From assembly GCA_964452525.1 (NCBI GenBank), contig CAYVLZ010000001.1, forward strand, positions 65,742 through 129,741: a DNA stretch of 64,000 nucleotides, in the 5' to 3' direction. A model generated the notes under the pieces. It had not been told where the DNA came from and did not search any database. It saw only the letters and a program-made list of their open reading frames with translations. Below are positions 599-64,000 of the stretch, one piece after another. The translations under genes were made by a program, and so were the position numbers. Source of the stretch: Candidatus Woesearchaeota archaeon. Lineage in GTDB: Archaea > Nanobdellota > Nanobdellia > SCGC-AAA011-G17 > CAYFGV01. How positions within the stretch are numbered: the stretch's first letter is position 1; each line of letters opens with the position of its first letter.

Positions 599-3500
599 AT
601 GAAAAGAGGTAAAATAAAAATATTGTTTTTAAAGAATCTGGTTTTAATCATATATCTTTTTTCACTCATTCATGTAGTTCATGCAGATTCTTTTAATGGT
701 GTAATTTGGGAGCAGACAGCAGGACCTCCAGGAGGTATTTTCCATATCGTAAAGGTTAGTCCTAAAGATTCTAACTCTATCTTTGCTGGATCGACAAGGT
801 CTTTGTTTGTTTCCAGAAATGCAGGTGAAGACTGGGAAAGAGTAATCTTAACCCATGTTTCAGCAGAGCAATTTATAGGAGCAATAGAGTTTGATATTAA
901 AAATCCAAATATAATTTATGTAGGAGCGTCTGATGGAATTTTCAAATCAACTGACTATGGAAAATCCTGGGAAAAAATGCAAGAAAAAGAAAATCTAAGA
1001 ATGATTACAGCAATTGCAATAGATCCCGAAGAGAGTAATATTCTTTATGCTGGAGCTCTGAATGACGGAGACAGCAGGATTTTCAAATCAACAGATTCAG
1101 GAGAAACCTGGAAAGATATAACTAATAATCTGCATATTAAAGAGATAAATTCTATTATAGTGGATAAAAAAGATAGTATTTGGATGGGGGCAGGCCATGA
1201 AATGGCAAAAGAAGGCTCCCTATATCATTCAACAGATGGTGGTTCCTCATGGAAGGTTATTGATATTGGAGCTCAAAAAGAAACTTTTGTAAGTGAAATC
1301 GCCCTAGACCCTTTTGATTCTAATCATATTATAGTAGGGCTTGCAGATGCTTTTAATAGAGGGGGTGAATTTTCTGAGCATCATTTTGAAACCAGAGATG
1401 GAGGAAAAACATGGAATAAGATGATATATTCATCTGGTCCTTCTTGTCCTGATATTCCTCAACCGAATCCAACCGACATAGAGTTTTCAAGATCAAAAAA
1501 AGGAATATTTTACATGATTAGTCCAGCTCATAAAACAACAGATGGCGGAAAAACGTTTTGTGGATTAGGAGGATGGCAAAAAATAGAAGATTTTGGAACA
1601 GCAGAGCAGACATCAATTGCAACTGATCCTAATAATGAAAATATCTTATATGCTACTTATATTGGCCAGGGCATTGCAAAATCTACTGACGAAGGAAAAA
1701 CATGGTGGCTAGCAAATAAAGGATTAATTAATCCTGCTGTTACTAACATTGCTGTTCATCCAACTGATGAAAAAGTAGTTTATGTTTCTGGAGGAGATGG
1801 TTCAGGGACATGGAAAACCGAAGACAGAGGAGAAACATGGGGAATATTAAACAAAGGAGGCATTACTCATCCGTGGGTTGACGAACTCGCTACAGAGCCT
1901 GCAAATGGAAATATTGTTTATGATATTGCCGACATTGGTAACATTTACAGATCAGAAGATGCAGGAATGGCCTGGGAGCAGATAAATAATGGTTTTAGTT
2001 TTTCTTCAATATACGCTATGGCTGTACACCCAACTGATGAGGAAGTTGTGTATGTTATAAACAATGGACAGGGAATGTTTAAAGGAAATTGTAGGCATAA
2101 TGAATGTGATTGGAGATACCTTCTTGGTTCTCCTGATTATTCTTACTCCATAGCAATTGACCCTGAAAATCCTAATATAATCTATAGTGGTTATAACAAA
2201 AAAGTGTTTGAAAAAGAATCAAAAGTTTACCGCTCAGAAGATGCTGGAGAGTCGTGGGGTGTTTCTTTAGCAATCCCTTCAGCTCAGGCTGTTACTTCAG
2301 TAGCTATTGATAAGCAAAATCCAAATAATGTTTATGCAGGAGCAACAGGAAAAAAAGGGGAGATTTATGTAAGTAATGATAAGGGTGTTTCCTGGGATAA
2401 GTTAAATAATAAATTTACATTCTCAACAATCCACACAATTACAGTTGATCCAAATAACGAAGAAGTAGTTTATTCTGCTCCGTGGGGCGCTGGTTTGTTC
2501 GTTTCAGAAGATGCTGGTGGAAGCTGGACAAAAATAGATACTCCAACAATTTCAATTCCAGCTATAATAGTAGATTCTAAAAACTCTAACCACATTATTA
2601 TTGCTGATAGAACAAAACCAAAAATATACCAATCATATGACAAAGGCAAAACATGGAAAGAATTAGTTTCTTTAGATGAAGAAAAATATTATCGTATCAG
2701 TACTATAGCATTGTATAATGGAGAGATTTATTTCTCTGTCTTTAATAAAATAACAGGGATGATATCTTTGTTTATTAATGGTCCTATGTCTGGAACAAAT
2801 TTCAGGTTAGATTTGAATGATCCTCAAGCTGAGCCTGTTGAATTTTCAAAAGTAATAGATGGAAAAATAATAATAGACTTTTTTTCAAAAGACAAGCTTT
2901 ATGCAGTAAGCCATGTTTATGGTGTATATGAATATGATGGCAGCAAATGGAAAGATATTTCTCCTGATATAGATATGGGCTTTAATAACATAATAGCTGA
3001 TGACAATAAATTATATTTAACAGGTGCATCAGATATTGATCTGGACATGAATTTTAGATTAGAAGGCAATCCTAGCCAAGAAAATATTATCAGCAATATT
3101 TACAGGAGTGAAGATAATGGAAATAGTTGGATACCCTTACTTGAGAACAATCCCTTTAAGAGTAGCACTAAGAAATTATTAAAGCATCCTAGTAAAGACA
3201 TTTTATTTGCTGTTACTGCTACAGGATTATACGTTTCAGATGATAACGGAAAAACATGGAAACAGCATAACAAAGGTTTGAATTTCAAAAACACTGGTTC
3301 AATGGCAATGAGCAACAATTACATCTATGTTGGAACCTTGGGCGGGGGAGTCTATTCAGGGAAAATAAATCCAGACAACTCCATTTCATGGGTAGAAAGT
3401 AATGGACCATTCCCAGAAATCTTTAATATCCAACTAAAAGTAGACCCGACTGATTCAAATGTTATTTATGCAACATCTTACCCTGGAGGAGTTTTTAAGT

Positions 3501-13847: not shown

Positions 13848-15056
13848 CCAGAGAAGACGTAGTTTTCAAGGCAACATCTCCTCTGGCTATGGAGTCCGGA
13901 ATGAACCCCACAATCATAAATAAGACAAAGGAATTTAATAAACCTTCTCCTAATCTGAAGTCCAAAGAGATAAAGAGAATTACAAAACTTCTCAAAAAGA
14001 AAGTCTATCCTTCAATAAATCTGAAGATGCATCATAATTCAAAGTATTCTGAAACAGATTTCCTTGATCTCTTAACTTATATTGCAATAACTCATGACTT
14101 TACAAATAATGGATCAAAAACATTTGAACTGCTTAAAGAAAACACACCAGCATCAAGCACCGTTATCCATCATATCAAAAAGCTTGATTCTGAATATGTT
14201 GAAAAACTATTCATGAAAACATTTGATAAATTCATTAAAGAGGCTACAAAATACAAACCATTCAGAAAAAGAGTTGATTTGGCTATTGATATTACAGAGC
14301 AAATGTATTATGGAGATAAAAATGATTACATGGTTTGCGAGACAAAACCCAAAGACGGGACTTCTCACTGCTTTAGGTATATAACAATAAATGTGGTTGA
14401 AAATGGAAAAAGATTCACTTTATTGGCTTTGCCAATGCACAAATTTACAACAAAGGCAAAAGTTGTAAGAAAATTAATAGAATATGCAAAATCAAAAGTA
14501 AAAATAAGGCATGTTTATCTTGACAGAGGATTCTTCAATTCCGAAATAATTAATCTCCTAAAAGAGTTAAGAGTTAGATTTCTAATGCCTGCTATCAGGA
14601 ATATAAAAATACAAAGATTCATGAGGGAATACAAGGAGATACAATCAAAGATTATCGATTATGATATGGGCTATAGGGAATATAACAGAGCAGAGTTTAA
14701 GCTTGTTTTCGTTGACGATAAACAAGGAACTAAAAGAGTATTTGCAACCAATATTCCGATAGCAGAAGAATTGGCACATCAGTTCTTTTCTTTATATTCA
14801 AAGAGATGGGGTATTGAAACATCTTACAGAGTCAAAGGAGACTTCAAAGCAAGAACAACATCAAAATATTATTCGGTGAGATTATTCTATTTCATGTGGT
14901 CTGTTTGTTTGTATAATATTTGGGTTTTAGTTAGTTTAGTTGTGGCAGTTATTTTTCATATTGATCTAAAGAAACCATTAGTTACTGCTAAATTATTCGG
15001 AGCAGTTCTTTATTCTTCAGAGCCAAGAGGAATAACCTAACTTAGCGTGAGATCTC
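13848..15056. mobile_element. Putative IS element (IS4/ISH3 group) carrying one transposase gene
   Basis: DDE transposase ORF 13889-15040. Weak imperfect terminal inverted repeats (left GAGAAGACGTAGTT..., right reverse-complement GAGATCTCACGCTAAGTT...). Boundaries approximate. Confidence 0.4.
13889..15040 (+). CDS. DDE transposase, IS4/ISH3 family
   Basis: 383 aa. YLDRGFF (second D) and the C-terminal RWGIETSYRVKGDFKAR (E/K of the YREK signature) are typical of IS4-group transposases. Confidence 0.7.
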   Translation: MESGMNPTIINKTKEFNKPSPNLKSKEIKRITKLLKKKVYPSINLKMHHNSKYSETDFLDLLTYIAITHDFTNNGSKTFELLKENTPASSTVIHHIKKLDSEYVEKLFMKTFDKFIKEATKYKPFRKRVDLAIDITEQMYYGDKNDYMVCETKPKDGTSHCFRYITINVVENGKRFTLLALPMHKFTTKAKVVRKLIEYAKSKVKIRHVYLDRGFFNSEIINLLKELRVRFLMPAIRNIKIQRFMREYKEIQSKIIDYDMGYREYNRAEFKLVFVDDKQGTKRVFATNIPIAEELAHQFFSLYSKRWGIETSYRVKGDFKARTTSKYYSVRLFYFMWSVCLYNIWVLVSLVVAVIFHIDLKKPLVTAKLFGAVLYSSEPRGIT

Positions 15057-25098: not shown

Positions 25099-25171
25099 AG
25101 CCCCGTAGTCTAGTGGTCAAGGATAGCGGACTTTGGATCCGTTGACGGAGGTTCGAATCCTCCCGGGGCTA
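25099..25171 (+). tRNA. tRNA-Gln (anticodon TTG)
   Basis: Cloverleaf with acceptor AGCCCCG/CGGGGCT, D-arm GUCU/GGAU, anticodon arm GCGGA-CUUUGGA-UCCGU, T-arm GGAGG-UUCGAAU-CCUCC. No encoded CCA. Confidence 0.85.
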
Positions 25172-37729: not shown

Positions 37730-40700
37730 AAGAAGTTTGGTGGCGGTATTTTTAGTATTTTTGGTAGTTGTATCTGGTCTTCCTGCTAGTGCACAGTATT
37801 ATGGAGATAGAGATCAGGATCTTTATGGTACTGGAAGAGGAAATCTTGGAGTTTGGGGCGTGGATGTTGTCGAGCAGTCACCTTTGATTGTACCTGCTGT
37901 AGCATTGGAGCATAGATCTAGAGCGCCCGTTTTACTTAGGTTAAGATTCTACCCTTTAACTTTGCTGACTGCTGATAATTTAGAAATTACCCATGTAACT
38001 GTTTCTTTAGATAAATCCAGTAAGGGTGTTACGAGTGTTGGCAGATATACTGAAATAGAACCTGAAGATGATATTACATCTAGAGATTTTACTCCAGAAA
38101 TAGCTGAAACAAAAAGTGAGGGAGTGGTTAAGGTCTATTTAGATAGGTATGGTGTTGGGAGAGATAGGACTCCGAGGATTAGTGAAGATACAGTAGAGAA
38201 AGCTTGTCAAGAATCTGGAGGAAAGGGTGTAGAAGATGTGGTTCCTGATCAGATTGAATTGTCTTTGAAAGCTGTTGTAAGATTTAAAGCTAAGAAATCT
38301 GATGGTACTTATATAGATAGAAGAGATTTCATATCCGGTAGTGTTGATGCGACTGAATACGAAATTCAAGAGAGAGTGGAAGAAAGATTAAGGCAATTAA
38401 ATAATAGAAGAGAGCAATTAGGTGAACTGCCTATAACTGGTGAAAAAGAAATTGAGAAGATAGAGGAAGATGTCAGAAAGCAAATTGAAGGCGGAACTCA
38501 AGAATATATAACTGATGTCGTTTATTTTGATACTGTCATTCCCATTGATAAAAGTAGAGTTTATGATCCAAGTCCAGAGAGTTTAAGAAAAAGAATTTGT
38601 AATACTATTGATATTAGAGAAAAATTACAGGGTGTTATAGATAAAGTTAGAAAAGTTGAGAATGTTATGACTGTTAGTTGTCTGGCAACTATGGTTGGAA
38701 GCTATGTAAGTGTTTTATTTGGAACCAGCTATTGCGATGCTACTGATGCTATTTCATTGGGTTGTGATTGGGTATTTTGTCCAAGGAGCAGATGTGCTGA
38801 AGAGAAAGTAGATCCTTTTGGAAGTATTTTATCAAGCTCTTTATTATGTTGGGATAGAGATAGACAATTCTTTGGTAAATCATTATTATCTGTAAAAGAA
38901 GGTGTTGATGAAAAAGGAGAAGATGAGACTAAAATTGAATGTGGTTATACTAATTTAGATGAAACAACAGGAAAAAGTCCAAGTGCTGGATTGACTATTC
39001 CTCATTACGGATGTATTTCTGGAGTTAGAGGTAATTTGGAATTGATAGATTTAATTGTTGAAAAATATCAACAGTGTTTAGTTGCAGCTAAGAACGGAGG
39101 AGTAAGTGTCGGTATCTGTGATAGGCTGAGAAATCTGTATATTTGTGACAGAGCTGTTGGAGCATTTTTAGATTATATGAATTCTAAAGGAGGAAGCAGT
39201 ATATTTACAGATTCTTTGATTAACTTACAAAATATGGAAACTGGAGATGCTGTTCCGGATAAGCCAGGAGAAGTTAGAAGTGAATGGGATGAGAAGAAAG
39301 ATACCTGGGCAGCTGTAAGTAAATCCTTGGTTGATGATTATCAGAGAGTTCCTTTCTTTAAGATGTTCGCTAATAAGGAAGAATATTTGAGGAGTCAGGT
39401 ATGTGCCGTATTTATCGAAGGTGGATTCTTTGATCTTGATAGTTTTAAGAATAATATGTTGACAGTTCCAATACCCGATAGTTATTTAGTTTATACTGAG
39501 AAAAGAGACTGGGGGGGCATTGGAGATGAGAAATCTTATTCATATGATGTATTTTACCAAGTTTATAGTGGAGAAGAAGGTTATTATGGAAGAGGTGGAA
39601 ATTATAATGTTTATCTAAGGGGAACTAGGATAGATATGAATGGGAAAAAAAGGCAATGTTCATTGCCTATTGCTAGTGGTTATGTTCCTGCTGGAGAAAT
39701 GGTGCAGGAAAACGTGTATAAAGTAGATACCTGTAATGCTGAGCAACAATGTATTAGGTTTAAAGGAAGAGAGAATTGTAATGACATTAGCTTACTTACT
39801 GCCTTGACTCCTCAGGGAGCGGATCCTTTTGGTTTAAGTTTGCTGTATAATGATGATAGGGATGGAGATGGGTTACCAGATAGTTGGGAAAGTGCTAATA
39901 ATGTTGATAATCCTTATGATGATGCGGATAGAGATGGATATTGTAATGCGATGGAATTTGAGAAAGGTACAGATCCTTTAGATGAAAATAGTTATCCTAA
40001 TGTTAAAGGTTGGAAAGATGATTCTTCAGAATGTATAAGTCTGGTTAAAACTCTTAAGTTAAGAAATGAGAAAGGTTATGAAGAAGATAAAGAAGATTTT
40101 GATTCTTCTCAAGAAACTGAGGACATCATAGAAGATATAGAGGAGGAAGAAGGAGACCTTCTGAGTTTAACTCTTAATTCTATAAAGATTAAAAAGGATG
40201 GAGTTACTTTTGACGATTATCAAGATTCTAATCTGGAAATTGATTCTGGAGGCATTTATGATGTAGAGTTTACTTTTGATAGAAAAATTAAAAATTGTAA
40301 TTTTGTTGGTGATATTTATGGTGATGTGGTTGTTGATGATACTGTTTGTGTACTTGATGACGAATCTTTTGCCAGAAGGGATTCTTGGCTATTCACTATA
40401 AATATTGAGCCTTTAGATGAAGGGTACAATAGTTTTATTAAAAGTTATGTTTTGAATAATGTAGAAACTAAGGTTGTTAATAATAATCTATTATGTGAAG
40501 TAACAAATGGAAATAATGGAGAGGAGTTTGGATATTGTTTATACGCTGATACTGACTCTGAAAAGAGATGTAGTGATTATTCCATAATAGGACAGACTTT
40601 TTATGGCTCTTTTATTGACCAGACATCCTCTAAAACAGCTTGTAATAATAGATGTAATGAAGATTATTCTGGTCTGTGCTTAACTAATGACGGCGATAAG

Positions 40701-40730
40701 CTTAATGATAACGTTATAGAAGAAGTTTAG
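37722..40730 (+). CDS. Large secreted protein (1002 aa) with thrombospondin-type-3-like Ca-binding Asp motifs
   Basis: Signal peptide. DDRDGDGLPDSWE...DDADRDGYCN...GTDPLDENS (DxDxDG-type motifs). Overlaps the upstream gene by 8 nt. Confidence 0.55.
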   Translation: MVKRSLVAVFLVFLVVVSGLPASAQYYGDRDQDLYGTGRGNLGVWGVDVVEQSPLIVPAVALEHRSRAPVLLRLRFYPLTLLTADNLEITHVTVSLDKSSKGVTSVGRYTEIEPEDDITSRDFTPEIAETKSEGVVKVYLDRYGVGRDRTPRISEDTVEKACQESGGKGVEDVVPDQIELSLKAVVRFKAKKSDGTYIDRRDFISGSVDATEYEIQERVEERLRQLNNRREQLGELPITGEKEIEKIEEDVRKQIEGGTQEYITDVVYFDTVIPIDKSRVYDPSPESLRKRICNTIDIREKLQGVIDKVRKVENVMTVSCLATMVGSYVSVLFGTSYCDATDAISLGCDWVFCPRSRCAEEKVDPFGSILSSSLLCWDRDRQFFGKSLLSVKEGVDEKGEDETKIECGYTNLDETTGKSPSAGLTIPHYGCISGVRGNLELIDLIVEKYQQCLVAAKNGGVSVGICDRLRNLYICDRAVGAFLDYMNSKGGSSIFTDSLINLQNMETGDAVPDKPGEVRSEWDEKKDTWAAVSKSLVDDYQRVPFFKMFANKEEYLRSQVCAVFIEGGFFDLDSFKNNMLTVPIPDSYLVYTEKRDWGGIGDEKSYSYDVFYQVYSGEEGYYGRGGNYNVYLRGTRIDMNGKKRQCSLPIASGYVPAGEMVQENVYKVDTCNAEQQCIRFKGRENCNDISLLTALTPQGADPFGLSLLYNDDRDGDGLPDSWESANNVDNPYDDADRDGYCNAMEFEKGTDPLDENSYPNVKGWKDDSSECISLVKTLKLRNEKGYEEDKEDFDSSQETEDIIEDIEEEEGDLLSLTLNSIKIKKDGVTFDDYQDSNLEIDSGGIYDVEFTFDRKIKNCNFVGDIYGDVVVDDTVCVLDDESFARRDSWLFTINIEPLDEGYNSFIKSYVLNNVETKVVNNNLLCEVTNGNNGEEFGYCLYADTDSEKRCSDYSIIGQTFYGSFIDQTSSKTACNNRCNEDYSGLCLTNDGDKLNDNVIEEV

Positions 40731-40737
40731 TTTTAGA

Positions 40738-40834
40738 TGCGGGAGACAGGGTTCGAACCTGCGTAGGCACTAAGCCATTGGGTTTCTTATTATTATCCTA
40801 AGCCCAACCCGTTTGACCACTCCGGCACTCCCGC
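40738..40834 (-). tRNA. tRNA-Leu (anticodon TAG) with a 13-nt canonical-position intron
   Basis: Minus strand. GCGGGAG-UG-CCG..CGG-G-UUGGG-CUUAGG[AUAAUAAUAAGAA]A-CCCAA plus a long variable arm UGGCUUAGUGCCUA and T-arm GCAGG-UUCGAAC-CCUGU. Confidence 0.8.
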
Positions 40835-42371: not shown

Positions 42372-42608
42372 TTACTCTGGGGATATCATAACTATTGTGT
42401 CTCCTCTAATGAAAACTAAGCCAATTTTTCTCTTTAATTCGCCGTTTTCATGTTCTTCTGCATTTTCTAATACTGTGTTTATATGTATGTCGAATGCTTT
42501 TAGTGTTCCTATTATTTGTTTTCCGTTTTTTAGTTCAATTAATACTCTTTTGTCCCTAGATTGGTTTAAAGAATCTAATGGTCTTTGTTCCATATTTAAT
42601 TCCCCCAC
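42372..42608 (-). CDS. Sm-like archaeal protein (SmAP/LSm)
   Basis: Sm1 (VLIELKNGKQIIGTLKAFDIHINTVL) and Sm2 (GLVFIRGDTIVMI) motifs. Confidence 0.85.
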   Translation of the reverse strand: MGELNMEQRPLDSLNQSRDKRVLIELKNGKQIIGTLKAFDIHINTVLENAEEHENGELKRKIGLVFIRGDTIVMISPE

Positions 42609-42727
42609 ATAATTTACATTTTACAAAAGTTTTACATTTAAAAACTTATCGGTTTGTGTTTTTTGTAAAACAAATAAATTTTTATATTAGAAGTATTAGA
42701 GGAATATATAATAAAATTGGTGATAAC

Positions 42728-44788
42728 TTGAAGAAGAAAAGAAGGGATAATATAATTGTATTTGTAACTCTCGTTTCTATATTGCTTGTTATGTATTTTT
42801 CTGATATTAGATATACTGGTTTTGCTGTTTTTGAATTTGGAGATGAAGAAGGTTTTGGAAATGGAACTTATAGTAATACAGAATGGATTACTGATCATAT
42901 TGAACTAGGTTCTGGAAATTTATCTGGTACTTATATTAGTAATGTTTTGGATGCTGGAGTGATTTCAACATGGAATCACATTAATTGGACTGAGACCTTA
43001 AACACTCTGGATTTGTTGATCGTTGTTGATGGGCAAGATGATGTTTGGAAGTCTAATGATTCTGGAGTTACTTGGACATTAGTTAAGGATGATCTTAGTG
43101 AAGGAGAAAGCAATGATGCTAATTATATGATAAAGGATAGCAATAATAATCTGTATGTTATTGATGGAGATGATGATGTGTGGCAGAGTACTGATCTTGG
43201 AGTTAGTTGGAGTAAAGTAAATGATGATTATAATGGTGAAGGACAACATGTAAATGTTGCAGTTGTTGATGGTAATGATAATTTGTTCATTATTGAAGGT
43301 GATCAGGATGTCTGGAAGTCTAATGATTCTGGAAGTAATTGGAATAAGGTAAATGTTACTTATGGTAATAATAATGCTCAGGGTATTGTTGCTTTTGATA
43401 CCGATTTATATGTTGTTAGCGGTGCAGCAGACATTTTTAAAAGTACTGATTCTGGAGTGAGCTGGGATAAAATAAATGACGATTATAATGGTGCTGAGAC
43501 AAATAATCCTTTGTATATGCTGGGAGACAGTAGTAACTATCTGTACATCGTTGATGGAGATGATGATGTATGGCAGAGTACTGATCTTGGAGTTAGTTGG
43601 AGTAAACTGACTGATGATTTCAATAATGGAGAAGGGCAAGATATTAAAGCAGGAACAGTTGATATTGATGATAATCTATATGTTATAGAGGGGGATGAAG
43701 ATGTTTGGCAATCTAATGATTCTGGAAGTAATTGGAATAAACAGATTGTGAATTTTAACGGGGACAATGGAAATGCTAAGGGCATGGTTGCATTGCATTT
43801 TGATACGGATATTACTTTTGAGATAAGATCTTGTTCTTCAGACGATTGTAGCGATTCTAGTTTTTCAGGAAGTTATACTAATCCTGATGGAGAGTATTTT
43901 GGTATTGATGATAATAGATATTTTCAGTATAGAGCTACTTTGACTAGCGATAATACAGATATAAGTTCTGAGTTGTATGGTGTTACGGTTGATTATACAA
44001 CCATAGATAATGACCCTGTTTTAGTGTCTCAAACTCCTGTTGATGGCTATAATTCTACAGATGGAGATGTTAATTTTAATTGTTCTGCTACTGATGATGT
44101 TGATTTAGATACTATTACTTTGTATCATGATTTGAATGGATCTTTAGAGGCTAATCAAACAATGATTGTTGATGGATTAAGCGATTCAGCTACTTTTAAC
44201 TTATCTAATTTGGTGAGTGGTGATTTTACTTGGAATTGTTTAGTTTATGATTCAAGTTTACAATTAGCTTGGGGAGAAAATAGAACTGTTAATGTTATTA
44301 TTGAAAGTTCAGAAGATGAGGATACGGGTAGTAGTGGTGGAAGTAGTGGTGGAAGTAGTGGTGGTGATGACAAAGTTGTGGAAGAAGAAAATAGCGAATG
44401 TGTTGAGAGTTGGACTTGTAGTGAATGGAGTGATTGCATTGAAGGAATTCAAAGTAGAGAATGTATTGATAGAAATGGATGCGGAACTTCTGATGGTAAA
44501 CCTCAAGAGAGACAAGAATGTGTTGAAGAAAATGTAGAAGAAGAAGAAACTAATTTAGAAAATGGTAATTCTGATGTAGGATTTACTGGACAAGTTGTAA
44601 ATGCTGGGAAAAACATAGTTGATTTTGCTAAACAAGAGTATTTGGCTTTTGTATTTATAATAGGCGTTGCTTTAATATATGTTAATTTTAGATTTGGTGG
44701 TTTGTTCAAGAGGAAGTTTTCAAGAGTTAAGAAAAGAAGAATTAAATCCAGTAATAAGAGAATAAGAACTAAGAGAAGAAGACGTTAA
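42728..44788 (+). CDS. Surface protein with repeated BNR/Asp-box-like modules, Gly/Ser linker, Cys-rich module and C-terminal TM plus poly-basic tail
   Basis: Probable TTG start at 42728 (the track ORF begins upstream at 42578 with no ATG). Eight or more D.DVW.S.D.G..W.K repeats. (SSGG)3 linker. CxxxWxCxxWxxC module. TM followed by KRKFSRVKKRRIKSSNKRIRTKRRRR. Confidence 0.5.
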   Translation: MKKKRRDNIIVFVTLVSILLVMYFSDIRYTGFAVFEFGDEEGFGNGTYSNTEWITDHIELGSGNLSGTYISNVLDAGVISTWNHINWTETLNTLDLLIVVDGQDDVWKSNDSGVTWTLVKDDLSEGESNDANYMIKDSNNNLYVIDGDDDVWQSTDLGVSWSKVNDDYNGEGQHVNVAVVDGNDNLFIIEGDQDVWKSNDSGSNWNKVNVTYGNNNAQGIVAFDTDLYVVSGAADIFKSTDSGVSWDKINDDYNGAETNNPLYMLGDSSNYLYIVDGDDDVWQSTDLGVSWSKLTDDFNNGEGQDIKAGTVDIDDNLYVIEGDEDVWQSNDSGSNWNKQIVNFNGDNGNAKGMVALHFDTDITFEIRSCSSDDCSDSSFSGSYTNPDGEYFGIDDNRYFQYRATLTSDNTDISSELYGVTVDYTTIDNDPVLVSQTPVDGYNSTDGDVNFNCSATDDVDLDTITLYHDLNGSLEANQTMIVDGLSDSATFNLSNLVSGDFTWNCLVYDSSLQLAWGENRTVNVIIESSEDEDTGSSGGSSGGSSGGDDKVVEEENSECVESWTCSEWSDCIEGIQSRECIDRNGCGTSDGKPQERQECVEENVEEEETNLENGNSDVGFTGQVVNAGKNIVDFAKQEYLAFVFIIGVALIYVNFRFGGLFKRKFSRVKKRRIKSSNKRIRTKRRRR

Positions 44789-50279: not shown

Positions 50280-51266
50280 TTACCAATCTACTTTAACTTG
50301 ATCTATACGCCATCTTGGTTTAATATCTAATTTTTCTTTTTTATTTCCTGTTTTATATTCTAGAATTCCTTGCCAAGCTATCTGAGCGCCATTATCGCCA
50401 GAGTATTTTAAGGGTACGAAATAGAATTTTGCATTCCTCTCTTCACACATTATTGATAACATCTCAATAAGTCTTTTATTAGCTGCTACACCGCCGATTA
50501 AAAGAGCTTCGTTTTTGTTCGTATGGGCTAGTGCTCTTTCAGTTACTTCTGTTAACATTGCAAAACAAGTTTCTTGTAATGAAAAACAGAGGTCTTCTTT
50601 TTTTGCACCTTTTTTATATTTATTTATTGCTGCAGTAATTATTCCAGAGAATTCAACATCCATGCCTTTTACTACGTAAGGAAGTTCAACATACTTGCCT
50701 TTTTTTGCTAAGTTTTCTATTATAGGACCGCTTGGGAAACCAAGGTTTATTGATCTGCCGAATTTATCTAGAGCATTTCCTATGCCTATTGAAAGTGCTT
50801 CTCCCATTATCCTATAGTAATCTCCTTCAAGAGATATTATCTGTGTGTTAGCTCCTGTTGCTAGGATGAAAACTGGGTTTTTTGCTTTTGTCAATAATTT
50901 ACCAATTTCTAAATGACCACATAGATGGTTAACACCAATTGTTGTAATATTACTTTCTTTTGAAAGTTTTTTTGCAAATTCTAGTCCTGCTAATAAACAA
51001 GGGGCTAGGCCAGGGCCAATCGCTACACTTATTAAGTTAATATCTTTTAGTTCTAGTTTGGCTTCTTTTAGTGCTTTCCTTAGAGCGTTATCTTGTATTT
51101 TTTTGTGATGCAGTGCTGCTTCCCTTGGTATTATCCCACCTGATTTAGTTTTATACATCTCTCTTATGTCACTTAAAATCTTTCCTTTATCTGTCACTAT
51201 TGATAAGCCAAATGTATGTGCTGTGCTTTCTATACCTAAACAAATTGTTTCTGCCATTTTATACAA
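50280..51266 (-). CDS. kae1: tRNA N6-adenosine threonylcarbamoyltransferase Kae1 (KEOPS)
   Basis: ICLGIESTAHTFGLSIV, HxxxH metal site region (NHLCGHLEIG) and ASKH-fold GIGN motif. Confidence 0.9.
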   Translation of the reverse strand: MYKMAETICLGIESTAHTFGLSIVTDKGKILSDIREMYKTKSGGIIPREAALHHKKIQDNALRKALKEAKLELKDINLISVAIGPGLAPCLLAGLEFAKKLSKESNITTIGVNHLCGHLEIGKLLTKAKNPVFILATGANTQIISLEGDYYRIMGEALSIGIGNALDKFGRSINLGFPSGPIIENLAKKGKYVELPYVVKGMDVEFSGIITAAINKYKKGAKKEDLCFSLQETCFAMLTEVTERALAHTNKNEALLIGGVAANKRLIEMLSIMCEERNAKFYFVPLKYSGDNGAQIAWQGILEYKTGNKKEKLDIKPRWRIDQVKVDW

Positions 51267-56734: not shown

Positions 56735-56813
56735 ATTTTTTTAAATGATTATAATTTTAAATATGTTTCTATTAGAAAGTTTTAAATATCAACTTTTGAT
56801 TTAATTTTTTACT

Positions 56814-56915
56814 GGGCCCGTGGCTTAGCCTGGTTAAAGCGCTGGTCTTATATGACGGTTAAGCTAACAGCTCTAAGAGAGCCAGAGATCGCCAGTTCAA
56901 ATCTGGCCGGGCCCA
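56814..56915 (+). tRNA. tRNA-Ile (anticodon TAT) with ~27-nt canonical-position intron
   Basis: GGGCCCG-UG-GCUU-AGCCUGGUUA-AAGC-G-CUGGU-CUUAUA[intron]A-GCCAG-AGAUC-GCCAG-UUCAAAU-CUGGC-CGGGCCC-A; mature loop CUUAUAA. Followed by T5. Confidence 0.65.
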
Positions 56916-56925
56916 TTTTTCTAAA

Positions 56926-57750: not shown

Positions 57751-57881
57751 GCTCCTGTAGTCTAGTCCGGCCAAGGATGCAGTTGCTTTGCAGCAGAACC
57801 CTTTCGAGTAAGCTTTTTAGGAAAAGCTTAACCAAAAATCGAAGAAAGGCTGAGACCCGGGTTCAAATCCCGGCAGGAGCA
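57751..57881 (+). tRNA. tRNA-Glu (anticodon TTC) with two intervening segments (about 16 nt before and about 40 nt after the anticodon loop)
   Basis: Acceptor GCUCCUG/CAGGAGC+A. D-loop AGUCCGGCCAAGGAU and T-arm GACCCGGGUUCAAAUCCCGG are characteristic of archaeal tRNA-Glu. Loop CUUUCGA at 57801-57807. The anticodon stem CAGUU/GGCUG forms only after removing 57785-57800 and 57808-57847. Confidence 0.55.
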
Positions 57882-58951: not shown

Positions 58952-59055
58952 TTTTAGATGGGAAAAATGGATTATTTATAAAAACTTCTTTTTGTATCCT
59001 TCTTAATTGGATTTAAAATAAAAAGTTTTATAAACTTTCTAAGAGCTAAAAAATT

Positions 59056-59157
59056 ATGAAGCGTAGTAGCAGGCGATGGAAAAAGAAAGGACAGATGCGT
59101 TGGAAGTGGCAACGTAAAAAAATGAAGAAAAAGAAACGAAAAGCGAAAGCTAAATAG
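59056..59157 (+). CDS. Unannotated micro-ORF encoding an Arg/Lys/Trp-rich peptide, L41e-like
   Basis: MKRSSRRWKKKGQMRWKWQRKKMKKKKRKAKAK; the MRWKWQRKKMKKKKRK segment resembles ribosomal protein L41e ([21 protein letters not shown]). Lies about 180 nt upstream of the 16S rRNA. Confidence 0.3.
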   Translation: MKRSSRRWKKKGQMRWKWQRKKMKKKKRKAKAK

Positions 59158-59775
59158 TAAGCTTTATATATAAGTCTGCTTCTTAAATCGTTACCTCATG
59201 AGGGAGATAGTGTTTTTATCTTCTAATAAATTTTCTTTGAGGGTAATTTATGAATACTTGATGTTTTATTAAGTATGATGTACAGACCTAGTAAGATAGT
59301 AGAGTTTCCTGCTAACTTTTTTTGCGATCACAATAATTCCCGTTGATCCTGCGGGAGGTTGCTGCTATTCGGATTCGACTTAGCCATGCAAGTCAGGGAG
59401 CTTCGGCTGCCGGCGTAAGGCTCAGTAACACGTAGTTAACTTACCCTTAGATCCAGGATAACCTCTGGGAAACTGAGGATAATACTGGATAAGGAATTGT
59501 TGCTGGAAGGCACTTTTCCTCAAAAGTAATGTCTAAGGATAGGACTGCGGCTGATTAGATTGTTGGTGAGGTAATGGCTCACCAAGTCTGGGATCAGTAG
59601 GGGGGATGAGAGTCCTAGCCCCGAGAAGGGCACTGAGAAACTGGCCCTAGTCCTAAGGGATGCAGCAGGCGCGAAACCTTTACAATGCACGAAAGTGTGA
59701 TAAGGGGATCCGAAGTGCTTTGCCTTTGGTAAAGCTTTTGTCAAGTGTAAATAGCTTGAAGAATAAGGAGTGGGT

Positions 59776-59809
<34 letters not shown>

Positions 59810-60192
59810 CTCCAAGTGGCAACCGTTTTTATTGGGTCTAAAGCGTCCGTAGCCGGTTTAGCAAATCTTTTGTGAAATTGTTCTGCTTAACAGAACAGCG
59901 TGCAAGAGACACTGTTGAACTTGGAACCGGGAGGGGATAGAAGTATTCTTTGGGGAGCGGTAAAATGCTATAATCCTTGGAAGACTACCTATGGCGAAGG
60001 CATCTATCCAGAACGGGTTCGACGGTGAGGGACGAAGGCTGGGGGAGCGAACAGGATTAGATACCCTGGTAGTCCCAGCAGTAAACGCTGCGAGCTGGGT
60101 GACGCGTGTTCTTCGAGGACATGCGGTGCCTAAGTGAAGACGTTAAGCTCGCCACCTGGGAAGTATGATCGCAAGATTGAAACTTAAAGGAA

Positions 60193-60828
60193 AGAGACTA
60201 AGAAGAAAACTATAAAAGGAATAAGATCCACTAATTACTATGGATAACAGTAAACTTTGTTATATATTGGGAGCATTGAGAGATTCAAGCATCGACATCA
60301 GGAAAGGGAAAAATTACGAGTTAAAGTTCAGTCAAAAGGATGAAAGATGGTTGTTTTATATATCTGACTTAATCTATTGTCTTTTTGGTGAGAGATTTAA
60401 TGTAAGAAATAATATGTTGAGGATTACCAACAAAAACATTGTATTAGAGATTCAAAATGTTTCAGAAATGGTTTCTCCACAAAAGTATTGGAAGACACCA
60501 TCTTTTGTTTTTAAGTTAGATGTTCTGGATTTAATTCCTTATATTCAAGGTTTCTGGGATGCTGAAGGTGGTTTACCTAGAAAACCTTTGATTGCTAAAC
60601 AGAAATATTTGTCTTTTGATCAGAAAAACAAACAATGTTTGTTTTTCTTGAGAACAAAATTGCTAAAGTTGGGATATAGACCAACAAACCTGACTTTTAC
60701 TAACCATGTTTGGCAATTTCGATTGACAAGAAAAAATGATATAATAAGTTATATTCAAAATATAGGTTCTTCACATCCCGAGAAATCTTCTCGAATGTTA
60801 AAAATGATTTCTTCTTTGTCTCCCTGAT
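60193..60828 (+). other. 16S rRNA intron 1 (~636 nt) inserted after AAAGGAA (E. coli ~position 908-915)
   Basis: Universal AAACUUAAAGGAAUUGGCGGGGGAGCAC is split at GGAA|UUGG by a 636-nt insert carrying a LAGLIDADG ORF. Confidence 0.75.
60240..60827 (+). CDS. LAGLIDADG homing endonuclease (16S intron-encoded)
   Basis: Two LAGLIDADG-type motifs: LCYILGALRDSS and YIQGFWDAEGG. The stop codon abuts the 3' splice site. Confidence 0.8.
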   Translation: MDNSKLCYILGALRDSSIDIRKGKNYELKFSQKDERWLFYISDLIYCLFGERFNVRNNMLRITNKNIVLEIQNVSEMVSPQKYWKTPSFVFKLDVLDLIPYIQGFWDAEGGLPRKPLIAKQKYLSFDQKNKQCLFFLRTKLLKLGYRPTNLTFTNHVWQFRLTRKNDIISYIQNIGSSHPEKSSRMLKMISSLSP

Positions 60829-61112
60829 TTGGCGGGGGCTCACCACAAGGAGTGGAGCGTGCGGTTTAATTGGATTCTACACCGGAAATCTCACCAGGAG
60901 CGATGGCAGGATGAAGGTCAGATTGAAGGTCTTACCTAACAGGCCAAGAGGAGGTGCATGGCCGCCGTCAGTTCGTGCCGTGAGGTATCATGCTAAGCCA
61001 TGCAACGAACGAGACCCATGCCTGTATTTGCTAACAGGTTTTTATGACTGAGCACAATACAGGGACCGCCTTCGAAAGGAGGAGGAAGGTGTGGGCAACG
61101 GTAGGTCAGTAT

Positions 61113-61173
61113 ACGCTGGAGCTTTCCTATTCATTCCAATGAATTGTGTGCTTATGTTAGCTTAGCGGCTAAA
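61113..61173 (+). other. 16S rRNA intron 2 (~61 nt, no ORF) between GGUAGGUCAGUAU and GCCCCGAAUCUCCUGGGCUACACGCG
   Basis: The conserved ~1210 region is interrupted by ACGCUGGAGCUUUCCUAUUCAUUCCAAUGAAUUGUGUGCUUAUGUUAGCUUAGCGGCUAAA. Boundaries ±3 nt. Confidence 0.5.
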
Positions 61174-61540
61174 GCCCCGAATCTCCTGGGCTACACGCGC
61201 GCAACAATGGTAAGGACAATGGGTCGCAACTCCGAAAGGAGAAGCCAATCCTCGAAACCTTGCCCTAGTTCGGATTGAGGACTGTAACTTGTTCTCATGA
61301 CGCTGGAATTCCTAGTAATCGGGTTTCATTATGGCCCGGTGAACATGTCCCTGAGCCTTGCACACACTGCCCGTCAAATCAACCGAGCAGGGTCTAGGTG
61401 AGGATTAATTTTTTGGTTAATTCGAACCTAGGTTCAGTAAGGTGGGTTAAGTCGTCACAAGGTAACCGTAGGGGAACCTGCTGTTGGATCACCTCCTTTT
61501 ATTTTTGAAGCTTTACTATACTAGAAGGTCTGTACTTTAT

Positions 61541-61711: not shown

Positions 61712-62327
61712 TACAAACTTTTTAAGAAAAAGTTTGATTAAAAAGTGAAAAAGTTTGAAAACTTTAAAACTTTGTTAGATATCATGTTTTTCATTTTTAA
61801 TAATGCAGCTCGATAATGAATATTTCGGGTGAAGAGCTTTAATATTTATTGAAGCTATGCATAGGCTATACTTCCCACGCCATTAGATGGATGACTTGGC
61901 TCAGAATGACGATGAAGAGCGTGGCAAGCTGCGATAAGCTTTGGGAAGGCGCATGCAGCCTTTGAACCAAAGATCCTTGAATGAGACTTCTTGTCTCTTT
62001 GAGACGATCAGTAGTGATCGGTGACGCGGTGAATTGAAGCGTCTTAGTAACCGCAGGAAAAGAAATCAAATGAGATGCCGTTATTATCAGCGAGAGAAAG
62101 CGGTATAAGACAAACCGAATTCTTATTAGAGATAATAAGAACATGTGGTGTTGTAGGACTTACTTTTAATCTTACTGGATGACTTAAAGTTCTCTGGAAA
62201 GAGATGCCTTAGAAGGTGACAGCCCTGTAGAGGAAGTCCAGAAGATGTGTAAGTATCCTGAGTAGGGCTCATTGGTTATTGAGTCTGAATTTGGGAGACA
62301 TTAACTTCCAATCTTAAATACATTCTG

Positions 62328-62360
<33 letters not shown>

Positions 62361-63010
62361 TTGAAAAGAACCCTTAACAGGGAGTTAAAAGATCCTGAAA
62401 TCTAATGGTAATGGTGTGATACTGCTCTTCGGAGTTGTATCGTGCGTTTTGAATAACGCGCCAGGGAGTGTATTTAAGTGGCGAAAGTAAATCTTTTGGA
62501 TGTACTTGAAAGGAAACTGAATGCTCGCAAGTAATGAGGAGCAGGGTATTAATGTGCCTTAAGTCACTTGGATACGACCCGAAACCAGGTGATCTAACCC
62601 TGAGCAAGGTGAAGCAATAGCGATATTGTGGAGGCCTGAAGAGGTGCTGTGGTAAAAGCGTTCTTCTGACTTGGGGTTAGGGGTGAAAAGCCAATCGAAC
62701 CTGGTGATAGCTGGTTCCTGTCGAAGTGGGCCGTAGTCCAGTCTCGAGCGAGATTGTTAGTATTGTAGAGCTACGGATTAGAAATTTAGGGGAAGAAATT
62801 CCTCGGTTTCTCGTCCAACTCCAAATGTGCTAATGTCATAGACCTCGGGAGACGGGGGTAGGCGGTAAGCGTCTATTCCGAGAGGGGAACAACCCTAACT
62901 GTAGTTAAGGTCCCAAAATACTGGTTAAGTGTTAAAGGGTGAAAGGTGTATATCTTCATAGACAGCGGGGAGGTAGGCTTAGAAGCAGCCATCCTTTAAA
63001 GAAAGCGTAA

Positions 63011-63679
63011 GTTGTTTACTAGCGATAACTTTATATAATCAGATGACTTAGAATACTATGCAGCTCACCTGTGATTTAGCTTATTTGCTTGGAGCTTTGA
63101 GAGACGGAACAGTCACAAGATATAAAGAAAAGAATAAAACACATAGTCATGTGACGTTCTATAGTAAAGACATTGAATGGTTAACATATCTACAGAAACT
63201 GTTTAATAAAGTTTTTCAAGAGGAGCTAAAAGTGAATAAGCCCAAAGGTGGTACAGCATATATACGAAAGTATTCTAAGGAACTCGTTAATCTTTTAGAA
63301 AAAAGATTTCAACATCCTGTTGGGAAACAGATAAAGTGGGAAACTCCAGATTCTTTGTTAAAATCTAGTAACAAAAAAATTTGGGCAAGTTATATTTCAG
63401 GTTTCTTCGATGCAGAAGGAGGGACAATTCCAGGAAGACAAATTATTTTTTACTTGTCAGGGGATGGAGAAAGATGCCCAGTTTTAGAAGACATTAAGAA
63501 GAAATTAAAAAGTATGTTTGACATTGATAGCGGAAAGGTAAGAGGATATGAAAATAAAAATGGAGTTTATCCTAGATTCTGTTTAAGGATAGCGAGTAAG
63601 AGAAGTAGAGCTTTATTTTGTGAGCATATAAAGCTTCATAATCCTAGTAAGATAATTAGGCTAGTAAACAGCCGCTAGA
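63011..63679 (+). other. 23S rRNA intron (~669 nt) inserted in the conserved GCGUAA|UAGCUCAC helix region (E. coli ~1090)
   Basis: Conserved sequence is split; flanking duplicated AGCUCACCUGU segments (intron 5' region and exon 2) are consistent with a BHB intron. Confidence 0.7.
63058..63678 (+). CDS. LAGLIDADG homing endonuclease (23S intron-encoded)
   Basis: LAYLLGALRDGTV and YISGFFDAEGG motifs. Clearly paralogous to the 16S intron ORF. The stop codon abuts the 3' splice site. Confidence 0.8.
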   Translation: MQLTCDLAYLLGALRDGTVTRYKEKNKTHSHVTFYSKDIEWLTYLQKLFNKVFQEELKVNKPKGGTAYIRKYSKELVNLLEKRFQHPVGKQIKWETPDSLLKSSNKKIWASYISGFFDAEGGTIPGRQIIFYLSGDGERCPVLEDIKKKLKSMFDIDSGKVRGYENKNGVYPRFCLRIASKRSRALFCEHIKLHNPSKIIRLVNSR

Positions 63680-64000
63680 TAGCTCACCTGTCAAGAGGTT
63701 ATGCCCTGAAGATGGACGGGGCTAAATCAGTTACCGATACTACAGACTAGCTAAGGCTAAGTGGTAGACAGGCGTTCTGCTTGACTAGAAGCTATTTCGT
63801 GAGAGGTAGTGGATCGAGTAGAAATGAGAATCCTGGTAGTAGTAGGAGCTAAACAGAGTGAGAATCTCTGATACCGTAAGGGCAAGGGTTTCTTAGCACT
63901 GCAGTTCAGCTAAGAGTAAGTTGATCCTAACTTGATTCATAAATTGACGTCGAGGAAAGGGAAAAAGGTTAAGATTCCTTTACTAATTGGATACTTATGG

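What the first reader, a model, noticed from the sequence alone, without database searches (positions are those of the whole stretch)
56814..56915. tRNA-Ile with anticodon UAU, with a ~27-nt intron
The mature anticodon loop reconstructs as CUUAUAA, so the anticodon is UAU rather than the agmatidine-modified CAU most archaea use to read AUA. tRNA-Ile(UAU) is known from only a few archaeal lineages such as Nanoarchaeota and Korarchaeota. It implies a different AUA-decoding strategy and possibly absence of TiaS.
Basis: partly seen in the sequence, partly recalled or inferred. Interest (0 to 1): 0.55.

Follow-up and report, generated by a model that had tools for sequence, protein, structure and literature searches.

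The report
Intron-containing tRNA-Ile(UAU) gene, DPANN archaeon
This is a real, intact archaeal gene for an isoleucine tRNA with anticodon UAU, interrupted by a standard 27-base intron, but such genes turn out to be common in DPANN archaea and were described for that group in 2011, so it is an ordinary member of a known kind.

Summary
Window 56814-56915 (+) is a tRNA gene (Rfam 59.4 bits, E 2.6e-10). A 27-nt intron (56853-56879) sits at the canonical 37/38 position in a strict bulge-helix-bulge motif. The spliced product is a 75-nt cloverleaf with loop CUUAUAA, anticodon UAU and discriminator A73. No excision can give CAU, because no CAT lies between the anticodon-stem strands.

The rarity claim is out of date. 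Fujishima et al. 2011 reported tRNA-Ile(UAU) in ARMAN-2, -4 and -5, which lack both tRNA-Ile(CAU) and TiaS; ARMAN-2's gene has a 25-nt intron at 37/38. Of the archaeal genes, 36 of 49 carry an intron at the same position.

The source is a Woesearchaeota/Nanoarchaeota-like organism. AUA is 44.6% of its Ile codons, so a dedicated AUA reader is needed. The window has no TiaS and no CAU tRNA among its seven tRNA genes. The rest of the genome could not be reached, so TiaS absence is inferred, not shown.

More unusual is a neighbouring tRNA-Thr(UGU) gene. Its 453-nt intron encodes a PD-(D/E)XK homing-endonuclease-like protein.

The parts
56774..56788 (+). Putative archaeal promoter: purine-rich BRE-like AGAAAG followed by the TATA-like box TTTTAAATA. 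The box ends 26 nt before the mature 5' end.
   Evidence: Read directly from the sequence. A similar GAAA..TTTAAA(T)A motif lies at about the same distance upstream of the Gln, Leu, Thr and Glu tRNA genes in the window. Function is inferred, not tested.
56814..56852 (+). 5' exon, tRNA positions 1-37: acceptor strand GGGCCCG, D-arm GCUU/AAGC, anticodon stem strand CUGGU, loop bases CUUAUA.
   Evidence: Rfam alignment, ARAGORN, in-silico spliced fold.
56849..56851 (+). Anticodon U34 A35 U36, which reads the codon AUA.
   Evidence: No alternative excision yields CAU.
56853..56879 (+). 27-nt bulge-helix-bulge intron at canonical position 37/38. It contains an internal AGCU-AAC-AGCU hairpin. Bases 56874-56877 (UAAG) pair with positions 32-35.
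   Evidence: Central helix of 4 Watson-Crick pairs, anticodon stem of 5 bp and intron helix of 2 bp. The length lies within the 23-138 nt range seen in 36 archaeal homologs.
56880..56915 (+). 3' exon, tRNA positions 38-73: A38, anticodon stem strand GCCAG, variable loop AGAUC, T-arm GCCAG-UUCAAAU-CUGGC, acceptor strand CGGGCCC, discriminator A73. No CCA is encoded.
   Evidence: All 21 cloverleaf pairs are kept in 26 homologs, and 11 of those pairs show compensatory changes.
56916..56920 (+). TTTTT run directly after the discriminator base, a likely oligo-T transcription terminator.
   Evidence: Read directly from the sequence. The same TTTTTCT follows tRNA-Val at 35734. Function is inferred.

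Best explanation
This is a functional gene for the minor isoleucine tRNA, tRNA-Ile(UAU), of a Woesearchaeota/Nanoarchaeota-like DPANN archaeon.

Shown here: the gene has an intact cloverleaf, a strict bulge-helix-bulge (BHB) intron at 37/38, anticodon UAU, A37, A38 and discriminator A73. It belongs to a large family of archaeal tRNA-Ile(UAU) genes that show compensatory covariation. It sits in a conserved position, tRNA-Ile(UAU) then tRNA-Glu(UUC) then 16S rRNA. The organism uses AUA for 44.6% of its Ile codons.

Inferred: the gene is transcribed from a TATA-type promoter as a pre-tRNA. The archaeal splicing endonuclease cuts in the two 3-nt bulges and RtcB-type ligase joins the exons. CCA is added afterwards. 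A37 is made t6A by the Kae1/Sua5 pathway (a Kae1/TsaD gene lies at 50280-51266). IleRS charges the tRNA with isoleucine, and U34 pairs with the A of AUA.

This most likely replaces the usual archaeal tRNA-Ile2(CAU)/TiaS (agmatidine) system, as reported for Nanoarchaeum equitans, Korarchaeum cryptofilum and ARMAN-2/-4/-5. How misreading of AUG is avoided is unknown. Candidates are a U34 modification, or co-adaptation of the tRNA, IleRS and ribosome as in Mycoplasma mobile.

My confidence is about 0.9 that this is a functional AUA-reading tRNA-Ile(UAU), and about 0.7 that it is the only AUA decoder and that TiaS is absent.
For: Rfam tRNA match of 59.4 bits, E 2.6e-10. ARAGORN calls Ile(tat) with a 27-nt intron. 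Strict hBHBh' motif. Clean spliced cloverleaf. No route to a CAU anticodon. In 26 spliced archaeal homologs no cloverleaf pair is broken, and 11 of 21 pairs show compensatory changes. 36 of 49 archaeal homologs have an intron at the same site, 25 of them with a full 4-bp central helix. Linkage to tRNA-Glu(UUC) and 16S is conserved. AUA occurs 38.8 times per 1000 codons, is 44.6% of Ile codons and is the 7th most frequent codon. Promoter-like and T-run signals are present. Kae1/TsaD is in the window. No TiaS was found by Pfam on 30 ORFs, nor by tblastn and phmmer with a PDB-validated TiaS query. None of the window's seven tRNA genes has a CAU anticodon. Precedents: PMC3239211, PMC6000648, PMC8450103, PMC3575796.
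Against: There is no expression, splicing, charging or modification data for this gene. Only 64 kb of the genome was visible; its source contig alone is 140,806 bp. A TiaS gene and a tRNA-Ile2(CAU) gene elsewhere cannot be excluded. Taniguchi et al. (PMC3575796) discuss bacteria that carry both the LAU and the UAU decoder, so the two systems can coexist. IleRS is not in the window, so its anticodon-binding residues could not be examined.
Confidence: 0.85

Rival explanations
1. Redundant decoder: the genome also encodes TiaS and tRNA-Ile2(CAU), and tRNA-Ile(UAU) is a second AUA reader that helps meet very high AUA demand.
For: Only 64 kb of the genome was inspected. Taniguchi et al. describe bacteria that keep both the LAU and the UAU decoders. 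AUA demand here is very high.
Against: All published archaeal cases (N. equitans, K. cryptofilum, ARMAN-2/-4/-5) lack both TiaS and the CAU gene. No TiaS and no CAU tRNA occur in the window.
Confidence: 0.12
2. Non-functional copy: the gene is a decaying duplicate of a tRNA-Ile gene and is not used in translation.
For: None specific. tRNA-Ile(UAU) genes can arise by anticodon mutation of a paralog, as proposed for K. cryptofilum in PMC6000648.
Against: All 21 stem pairs are intact. The BHB is strict, conserved T-loop and D-loop residues are present, and promoter and terminator signals are in place. The gene sits in the conserved position next to tRNA-Glu and 16S, as in many relatives. AUA is the 7th most frequent codon, so it needs a reader.
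Confidence: 0.02
3. Wrong anticodon or identity: the intron lies elsewhere, so the mature tRNA reads another codon (Leu UAA, Ser UGA or AGA, or Met/Ile2 CAU).
For: Non-canonical intron positions do occur in this genome, in the Val, Glu and Ala genes.
Against: Only the 37/38 placement has a strict 4-bp central helix with both flanking helices and still leaves a foldable tRNA. The 5-nt variable loop excludes Leu and Ser. No CAT lies between the stem strands. The acceptor stem GGGCCC with A73 matches the tRNA-Ile(UAU) family.
Confidence: 0.01

Closest known systems
ARMAN-2 (Micrarchaeota) pre-tRNA-Ile(UAU), Fujishima et al. 2011, NAR 39:9695 (PMC3239211)
   Same: DPANN archaeon. Anticodon UAU. 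Intron at canonical 37/38 in a strict hBHBh' motif, 25 nt there against 27 nt here. Proposed to replace the tRNA-Ile(CAU)/TiaS system.
   Different: The lineage differs: here Woesearchaeota/Nanoarchaeota-like, with at most 81% 16S identity to any fetched locus. In ARMAN, splicing was shown in vitro and the absence of TiaS and the CAU gene was shown genome-wide.
tRNA-Ile(UAU) of Nanoarchaeum equitans and Korarchaeum cryptofilum
   Same: Archaeal UAU isoacceptor in genomes that lack tRNA-Ile2(CAU) (PMC8450103). The K. cryptofilum gene also has an intron (PMC6000648).
   Different: Those are thermophiles with complete genomes. The present organism has 33% GC overall and a 45% GC 16S gene, and is known only from a metagenome-derived contig.
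Eukaryotic cytoplasmic tRNA-Ile(UAU) with intron-dependent pseudouridine-34/36 formation by Pus1
   Same: UAU anticodon, and an intron one base 3' of the anticodon that pairs with the anticodon region. The Ile(UAU) isoacceptor is frequently intron-bearing.
   Different: In yeast the intron is required for Pus1 to convert UAU to pseudoU-A-pseudoU (PMC4090602). No such dependence is known or tested in archaea, and 13 of 49 archaeal homologs have no intron.
Mycoplasma mobile tRNA-Ile2(UAU), Taniguchi et al. 2013 (PMC3575796)
   Same: A prokaryote without the C34-modifying enzyme reads AUA with a UAU anticodon. t6A37 is present.
   Different: It is bacterial and has no intron. U34 was shown to be unmodified, and specificity depends on IleRS Arg865 and on the ribosome. 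None of this is known for the archaeal gene.
Canonical archaeal tRNA-Ile2(CAU) with agmatidine made by TiaS
   Same: Same decoding task (AUA as Ile, not AUG) and the same general tRNA-Ile body.
   Different: The gene here encodes T, not C, at position 34, so TiaS has no substrate in this tRNA.

Membership tests
tRNA (Rfam RF00005) | Full-length match to the covariance model above the gathering score | tested here: met
   59.4 bits against a gathering score of 29, model positions 1-71, E 2.6e-10.
tRNA (Rfam RF00005) | Cloverleaf whose stems are maintained by compensatory changes among homologs | tested here: met
   In 26 spliced archaeal homologs, 21 of 21 pairs are never broken and 11 pairs show changes on both sides. 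Caveat: the homologs were found with a pattern that fixed parts of the 5' half.
Archaeal bulge-helix-bulge (BHB) intron, canonical 37/38 type | 4-bp central helix flanked by two 3-nt bulges on opposite strands, with cleavage after the second bulge base | tested here: met
   CUUA pairs with UAAG (4 Watson-Crick pairs). The bulges are U36 A37 | U and A G | A38.
Archaeal bulge-helix-bulge (BHB) intron, canonical 37/38 type | Outer helices h (the anticodon stem) and h' (within the intron), which make the motif the strict hBHBh' form | tested here: met
   h is 5 bp and h' is 2 bp (G-C, A-U).
Archaeal bulge-helix-bulge (BHB) intron, canonical 37/38 type | Actual excision by the splicing endonuclease and ligation of the exons | not testable with these tools
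   This needs RNA data or an in-vitro assay. No endonuclease gene was recognised among the 30 window ORFs scanned.
tRNA-Ile (isoleucine identity) | A35, U36, A37 (the t6A site) and discriminator A73, with the GGGCC acceptor stem typical of archaeal tRNA-Ile | tested here: met
   Read directly from the sequence. The same features occur in all 26 aligned family members. That these are the identity elements rests on general knowledge of tRNA-Ile.
tRNA-Ile (isoleucine identity) | Aminoacylation by IleRS | not testable with these tools
   IleRS is not encoded in the window, and no biochemical data exist.
TiaS-independent AUA decoding (N. equitans / K. cryptofilum / ARMAN type) | Presence of a tRNA-Ile(UAU) gene | tested here: met
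TiaS-independent AUA decoding (N. equitans / K. cryptofilum / ARMAN type) | Absence of tRNA-Ile2(CAU) from the genome | tested here: inconclusive
   The window's seven tRNA genes are Gln UUG, Thr UGU, Val GAC, Leu UAA, Ile UAU, Glu UUC and Ala UGC. None is CAU. The rest of the genome was not available.
TiaS-independent AUA decoding (N. equitans / K. cryptofilum / ARMAN type) | Absence of a TiaS homolog from the genome | tested here: inconclusive
   No TiaS family appears in Pfam scans of the 30 largest ORFs. A TiaS N-terminal domain validated against PDB 3AMT/4RVZ gives no significant tblastn or phmmer hit in the window. Only 64 kb was searched.

The most novel reading that the evidence does not exclude
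The 37/38 intron of DPANN tRNA-Ile(UAU) might not be a neutral passenger. It might be needed for an intron-dependent modification of U34 and/or U36, which the BHB holds in a defined helix-and-bulge geometry. That would be analogous to the Pus1-dependent pseudoU-A-pseudoU formation in eukaryotic tRNA-Ile(UAU), and would be a eukaryote-like solution to telling AUA from AUG in archaea that have lost TiaS. In favour: 36 of 49 archaeal tRNA-Ile(UAU) genes carry the intron, against 21 of 48 neighbouring tRNA genes (Fisher p = 0.004). Against: lineage confounds this comparison, and 13 homologs have no intron.
Probability: 0.08. Interest if true: 0.55.

Novelty: new member of a known kind. Interest (0 to 1): 0.15.

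Why it matters
The gene adds one more example to an established pattern: DPANN archaea with reduced genomes read AUA with a genomically encoded UAU anticodon instead of the agmatidine/TiaS system. The survey result is the more useful outcome. It shows this solution is common across DPANN archaea and CPR bacteria rather than a curiosity of two or three genomes, so annotation pipelines and statements such as 'tRNA-UAU is nearly absent from Archaea' need updating. How these tRNAs avoid reading AUG remains an open question, but this gene does not make it more testable than the published cases do.

Tried and rejected
1. Alternative intron placement giving CAU. I enumerated all BHB candidates and all 27-nt excisions. 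None gives CAU, and the other strong BHB candidate would delete the T-arm.

2. A hidden tRNA-Ile2(CAU) at 35629-35733, which contains 'CACAUAU'. A local Rfam scan (42.7 bits) and in-silico splicing show it is tRNA-Val(GAC) with two non-canonical introns. The CAU-like string lies in the D-arm intron.

3. The tRNA 3'-half-like hit at 35560-35626 as a split tRNA or an attachment-site remnant. It is the 3' exon of tRNA-Thr(UGU), which has a 453-nt intron.

4. The weak tRNA hit in the 16S-23S spacer as a possible CAU gene. It is tRNA-Ala(UGC) with the G3-U70 pair and two introns.

5. Retrieving the source genome. Three exact look-ups failed. The cluster look-up showed only an unnamed NCBI contig of 140,806 bp. 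A 3-kb Logan contig from SRR7048218 is the same organism. A genome-wide search for TiaS and CAU tRNAs was therefore impossible.

6. Literature linking DPANN with TiaS or agmatidine. No paper in the library holds both terms.

7. ARAGORN's default mode and the whole-window Rfam scans miss the intron-rich Thr and Val genes and score Ala below the gathering threshold. A custom scan for the acceptor stem and T-arm plus local Rfam scans were needed.

8. Brute-force resolution of the second intron in tRNA-Glu using ARAGORN was too permissive to be decisive.

Full report
**Observation.**
Rfam's tRNA covariance model matches window 56814-56915 on the plus strand over its full length at 59.4 bits (gathering score 29, E 2.6e-10 for this window). 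About 28 extra bases sit in the anticodon loop. ARAGORN in its default, intron-blind mode missed the gene. With introns allowed it calls tRNA-Ile(tat) with the 27-nt intron UGACGGUUAAGCUAACAGCUCUAAGAG inserted between positions 37 and 38.

**Intron boundaries.**
Archaeal tRNA introns are defined by the bulge-helix-bulge (BHB) motif: a 4-bp helix flanked by two 3-nt bulges, with cleavage after the second bulge base.
- Positions 32-35 (CUUA, 56847-56850) pair with intron bases -6 to -3 (UAAG, 56874-56877) as four Watson-Crick pairs.
- The bulges are U36 A37 | U and A G | A38.
- The outer helices are the 5-bp anticodon stem and a 2-bp intron helix.
- An enumeration of every BHB-like arrangement in the gene gave one other candidate with equally long flanking helices. 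It exists only because GCCAG occurs both in the anticodon stem and in the T-stem, and using it would delete the T-arm.
- Removing 56853-56879 gives a 75-nt RNA that folds as a clean cloverleaf with loop CUUAUAA, a 5-nt variable loop and discriminator A73.
- All eight ways of removing 27 nt from the 34 nt between the stem strands give UAU, UAA, UGA or AGA. The string CAT does not occur there at all.

**Expression signals.**
An AGAAAG-TTTTAAATA motif (56774-56788) ends 26 nt before the mature 5' end. Similar motifs precede the Gln, Leu, Thr and Glu genes of the window at the same distance. A TTTTT run follows the discriminator base, and no CCA is encoded. These features are read from the sequence; their function is inferred.

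**Other tRNA genes in the window.**
A separate tRNA-Ile2(CAU) gene would weaken the interpretation, so I resolved every tRNA-like signal.
- **Routine calls:** Gln(UUG) at 25099-25171, Leu(UAA) at 40738-40834 on the minus strand, and Glu(UUC) at 57751-57881.
- **35629-35733:** this oddly folded ARAGORN call contains 'CACAUAU'. In a local Rfam scan (42.7 bits) it is tRNA-Val(GAC) with a 15-nt intron in the D-arm and a 17-nt intron at 43/44. The spliced form is a clean Val cloverleaf, so the CAU-like string is intronic.
- **35560-35626:** this 3'-half-like hit pairs with a 5' half starting at 35102. Together they form tRNA-Thr(UGU) with a 453-nt intron.
- **16S-23S spacer:** the weak hit there is tRNA-Ala(UGC) with the G3-U70 pair and two introns.
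- **Custom scan:** a search for acceptor stem plus T-arm found nothing else.

None of the seven tRNA genes has a CAU anticodon.

**TiaS.**
Pfam scans of the 30 largest ORFs found no TiaS family. I recalled the N-terminal 197 residues of Archaeoglobus fulgidus TiaS and validated them against the PDB: 195 of 197 residues are identical to 3AMT/4RVZ, 'tRNA(Ile2) 2-agmatinylcytidine synthetase TiaS'. With that query, tblastn on the window and phmmer --max on all six-frame ORFs gave nothing significant. This covers only 64 kb.

The neighbouring YchF-like GTPase has a 100% identical entry from an unnamed NCBI contig of 140,806 bp. That contig could not be retrieved. Genome-wide absence of TiaS is therefore an inference from precedent, not a result.

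**Codon demand.**
In 47 ORFs (16,826 codons) AUA occurs 38.8 times per 1000 codons. It makes up 44.6% of Ile codons, is the 7th most frequent codon, and has the same share in eight conserved genes. An efficient AUA reader is therefore essential in this 33% GC genome. A Kae1/TsaD gene, part of the t6A37 pathway that ANN-reading tRNAs need, lies at 50280-51266.

**How common is this?**
The literature held here shows that the 'few lineages' view rests on surveys of cultivated or complete genomes.
- One survey found UAU in 2 of 167 archaeal genomes (PMC6000648). Another names the same two archaea, N. equitans and K. cryptofilum (PMC8450103).
- Fujishima et al. 2011 (PMC3239211) reported that ARMAN-2, -4 and -5 all carry tRNA-Ile(UAU) and lack both tRNA-Ile(CAU) and TiaS. 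ARMAN-2's pre-tRNA has a 25-nt intron at 37/38 in a strict hBHBh' motif, which its endonuclease cut in vitro.

I scanned one genome per GTDB species with a degenerate pattern for the 5' half of tRNA-Ile(UAU).
- ARAGORN confirmed a UAU tRNA in 100 of the 120 loci. All but one of the rest (L051) were confirmed by eye: they have longer introns or a second intron.
- By record title, 49 loci are archaeal: Woese-, Pace-, Nano-, Micr-, Aenigm-, Undin-, Iain- and Marsarchaeota, one Thermoplasmata, and several 'binchicken' assemblies whose labels may be placeholders. The other 71 are bacterial, mostly CPR/Patescibacteria.
- Among the 49 archaeal genes, 36 have an intron at 37/38: 25 with a full 4-bp central helix, 9 with 3 of the 4 pairs and 2 ambiguous. 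Intron lengths are 23-138 nt. Thirteen genes have no intron.
- The window gene, with 27 nt and a strict BHB, is typical.
- In 26 spliced homologs all 21 cloverleaf pairs are kept, and 11 pairs show compensatory changes.
- Caveat: the search pattern fixed CTTATA and parts of the 5' half, so conservation there is by construction.

**Context and lineage.**
In several relatives the tRNA-Ile(UAU) gene lies just upstream of tRNA-Glu(UUC) and the 16S rRNA gene, as it does here. The YchF-like GTPase also neighbours it in three loci. The best 16S identity to any fetched locus is about 81%. The best non-self GTPase hits are at most 72% identical. The named hits, at 59-65% identity, are from Woesearchaeota or Nanoarchaeota, and the closest cluster (72%) includes a Tara mesopelagic 0.1-0.22 um sequence. 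The organism is thus a divergent member of the Woese/Pace/Nanoarchaeota radiation of DPANN.

**Mechanism.**
- **Shown:** an intact intron-bearing tRNA-Ile(UAU) gene in a conserved family and genomic position, in a genome with heavy AUA use.
- **Inferred from established archaeal tRNA biology:** transcription, BHB cleavage by the splicing endonuclease, ligation, CCA addition, t6A37 formation, charging by IleRS, and reading of AUA through a U34-A pair.
- **Unknown:** how AUG is rejected. In M. mobile U34 is unmodified and specificity comes from IleRS Arg865 and the ribosome (PMC3575796). In yeast the intron is required for Pus1 to make pseudouridine at positions 34 and 36 (PMC4090602). Introns are commoner in archaeal tRNA-Ile(UAU) genes (36/49) than in neighbouring tRNA genes (21/48; Fisher p = 0.004). 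This hints at such a role, but lineage confounds the comparison and the 13 intron-less genes contradict a strict requirement.

**Verdict.**
The feature is an ordinary member of a kind already described for DPANN archaea, so its interest is low.

**Side observations.**
The window holds more unusual things than the finding itself. Most notable is tRNA-Thr(UGU) at 35102-35626.
- Its 453-nt BHB intron encodes a 132-aa PD-(D/E)XK protein (Pfam PF11645, E 7.7e-22).
- The protein family's profile matches PDB 2OST at E 1.7e-5. From memory, 2OST is I-Ssp6803I, the homing endonuclease of a cyanobacterial tRNA-fMet intron.
- I sampled six homolog contexts. One repeats the intron-borne arrangement (L128/L129). 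Four place the ORF directly beside a tRNA-Thr(UGU) gene or, in L133, a tRNA-Thr(UGU)-like gene (L122-L124, L125-L127, L130, L133). One places it beside tRNA-Tyr (L131).

This is the behaviour expected of a homing-endonuclease gene that targets tRNA-Thr(UGU) genes.

Noticed in passing
window 35102-35626 (+); also L121, L128/L129, L125-L127, L130, L133, L122-L124, L131: tRNA-Thr(UGU) carries a 453-nt strict-BHB intron (35138-35590) at 37/38. The intron encodes a 132-aa PD-(D/E)XK protein (ORF 35193-35591; its TGA stop spans the 3' splice site). The ORF matches Pfam PF11645 at E 7.7e-22, and its family profile hits PDB 2OST at E 1.7e-5 (from memory, I-Ssp6803I, a tRNA-intron homing endonuclease). 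About 30 homologs exist. In L128/L129 the ORF again lies inside a 459-nt tRNA-Thr(UGU) intron. In four other contexts it lies within 100 nt of a tRNA-Thr(UGU) or Thr(UGU)-like gene, and in one next to tRNA-Tyr. It looks like a mobile homing-endonuclease gene that tracks tRNA-Thr(UGU) genes, either intron-borne or free-standing. I know of no report of an endonuclease ORF in an archaeal BHB tRNA intron, and I did not search the literature exhaustively.
   Followed up: partly
window 35629-35733 (+): tRNA-Val(GAC) lies 2 nt downstream of tRNA-Thr. It has two non-canonical introns: 15 nt in the D-loop/D-stem (about position 20/21) and 17 nt at 43/44. Both whole-window Rfam scans missed it. A local scan scores it at 42.7 bits.
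   Followed up: partly
window 57751-57881 (+): tRNA-Glu(UUC), 131 nt long, has a 40-nt intron at 37/38 and probably a second 16-nt intron at 29/30. Removing local bases 33-48 restores a perfect CAGCC/GGCUG anticodon stem. No strict BHB was found for the second intron.
   Followed up: partly
window 61541 to about 61721 (+), in the 16S-23S spacer: tRNA-Ala(UGC) has the G3-U70 pair, an intron of about 50 nt at 37/38 and a second insertion in the T-loop. It scores only 24 bits in Rfam because of the T-loop intron. Similar T-loop introns occur in the tRNA-Ile(UAU) genes of L054, L059, L061, L067, L068, L093 and L115. Six of the seven tRNA genes in the window are interrupted, which implies a splicing endonuclease of broad specificity.
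   Followed up: partly
window 59336-61497 (16S) and 61863-64000 (23S): The 16S gene is 2162 nt long against a 1478-position model. Compared with L022, the insertions lie at about 60193-60825 (holding ORF 60240-60827, 195 aa, weak LAGLIDADG_3 hit, E 0.003) and at about 61113-61173. The 23S gene holds ORF 63058-63678 (206 aa, LAGLIDADG_3, E 1.5e-7). These are probable rRNA introns with homing endonucleases. Rfam reported no group I intron.
   Followed up: partly
window about 59055-59156 (+): A small, very basic ORF (MKRSSRRWKKKGQMRWKWQRKKMKKKKRKAKAK) lies about 180 nt upstream of the 16S gene. The DNA is 80-95% identical to L061, L054, L067 and L009 at the same position. It resembles ribosomal protein L41e; I did not test this against a profile.
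   Followed up: partly
L001-L120 (genome-contig scan): 71 of the 120 loci carrying tRNA-Ile(UAU) are bacterial by record title, mostly CPR/Patescibacteria (Saccharibacteria, Paceibacterota, Uhrbacteria, Peregrinibacteria and others). None has an intron. UAU-type AUA decoding therefore appears widespread in both groups of ultra-small prokaryotes. Several 'uncultured Gammaproteobacteria' and 'Methanosarcinales' labels on binchicken assemblies look like placeholders.
   Followed up: partly
alignment A2, columns 34/42: The closing pair of the anticodon stem (31-39) is a U-G wobble in 18 of 26 archaeal tRNA-Ile(UAU) sequences, including the window gene, and U-A in 7. A conserved wobble pair next to the anticodon loop might affect decoding. 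I did not examine this further.
   Followed up: no
window 599-4924, 37722-40730 and 42578-44788 (+); 13889-15040 (+): Very large putative surface proteins with Sortilin/BNR repeats (1441 and 736 aa) and a 1002-aa ORF with only a weak TSP3 repeat hit. There is also a DDE transposase at 13889-15040.
   Followed up: no
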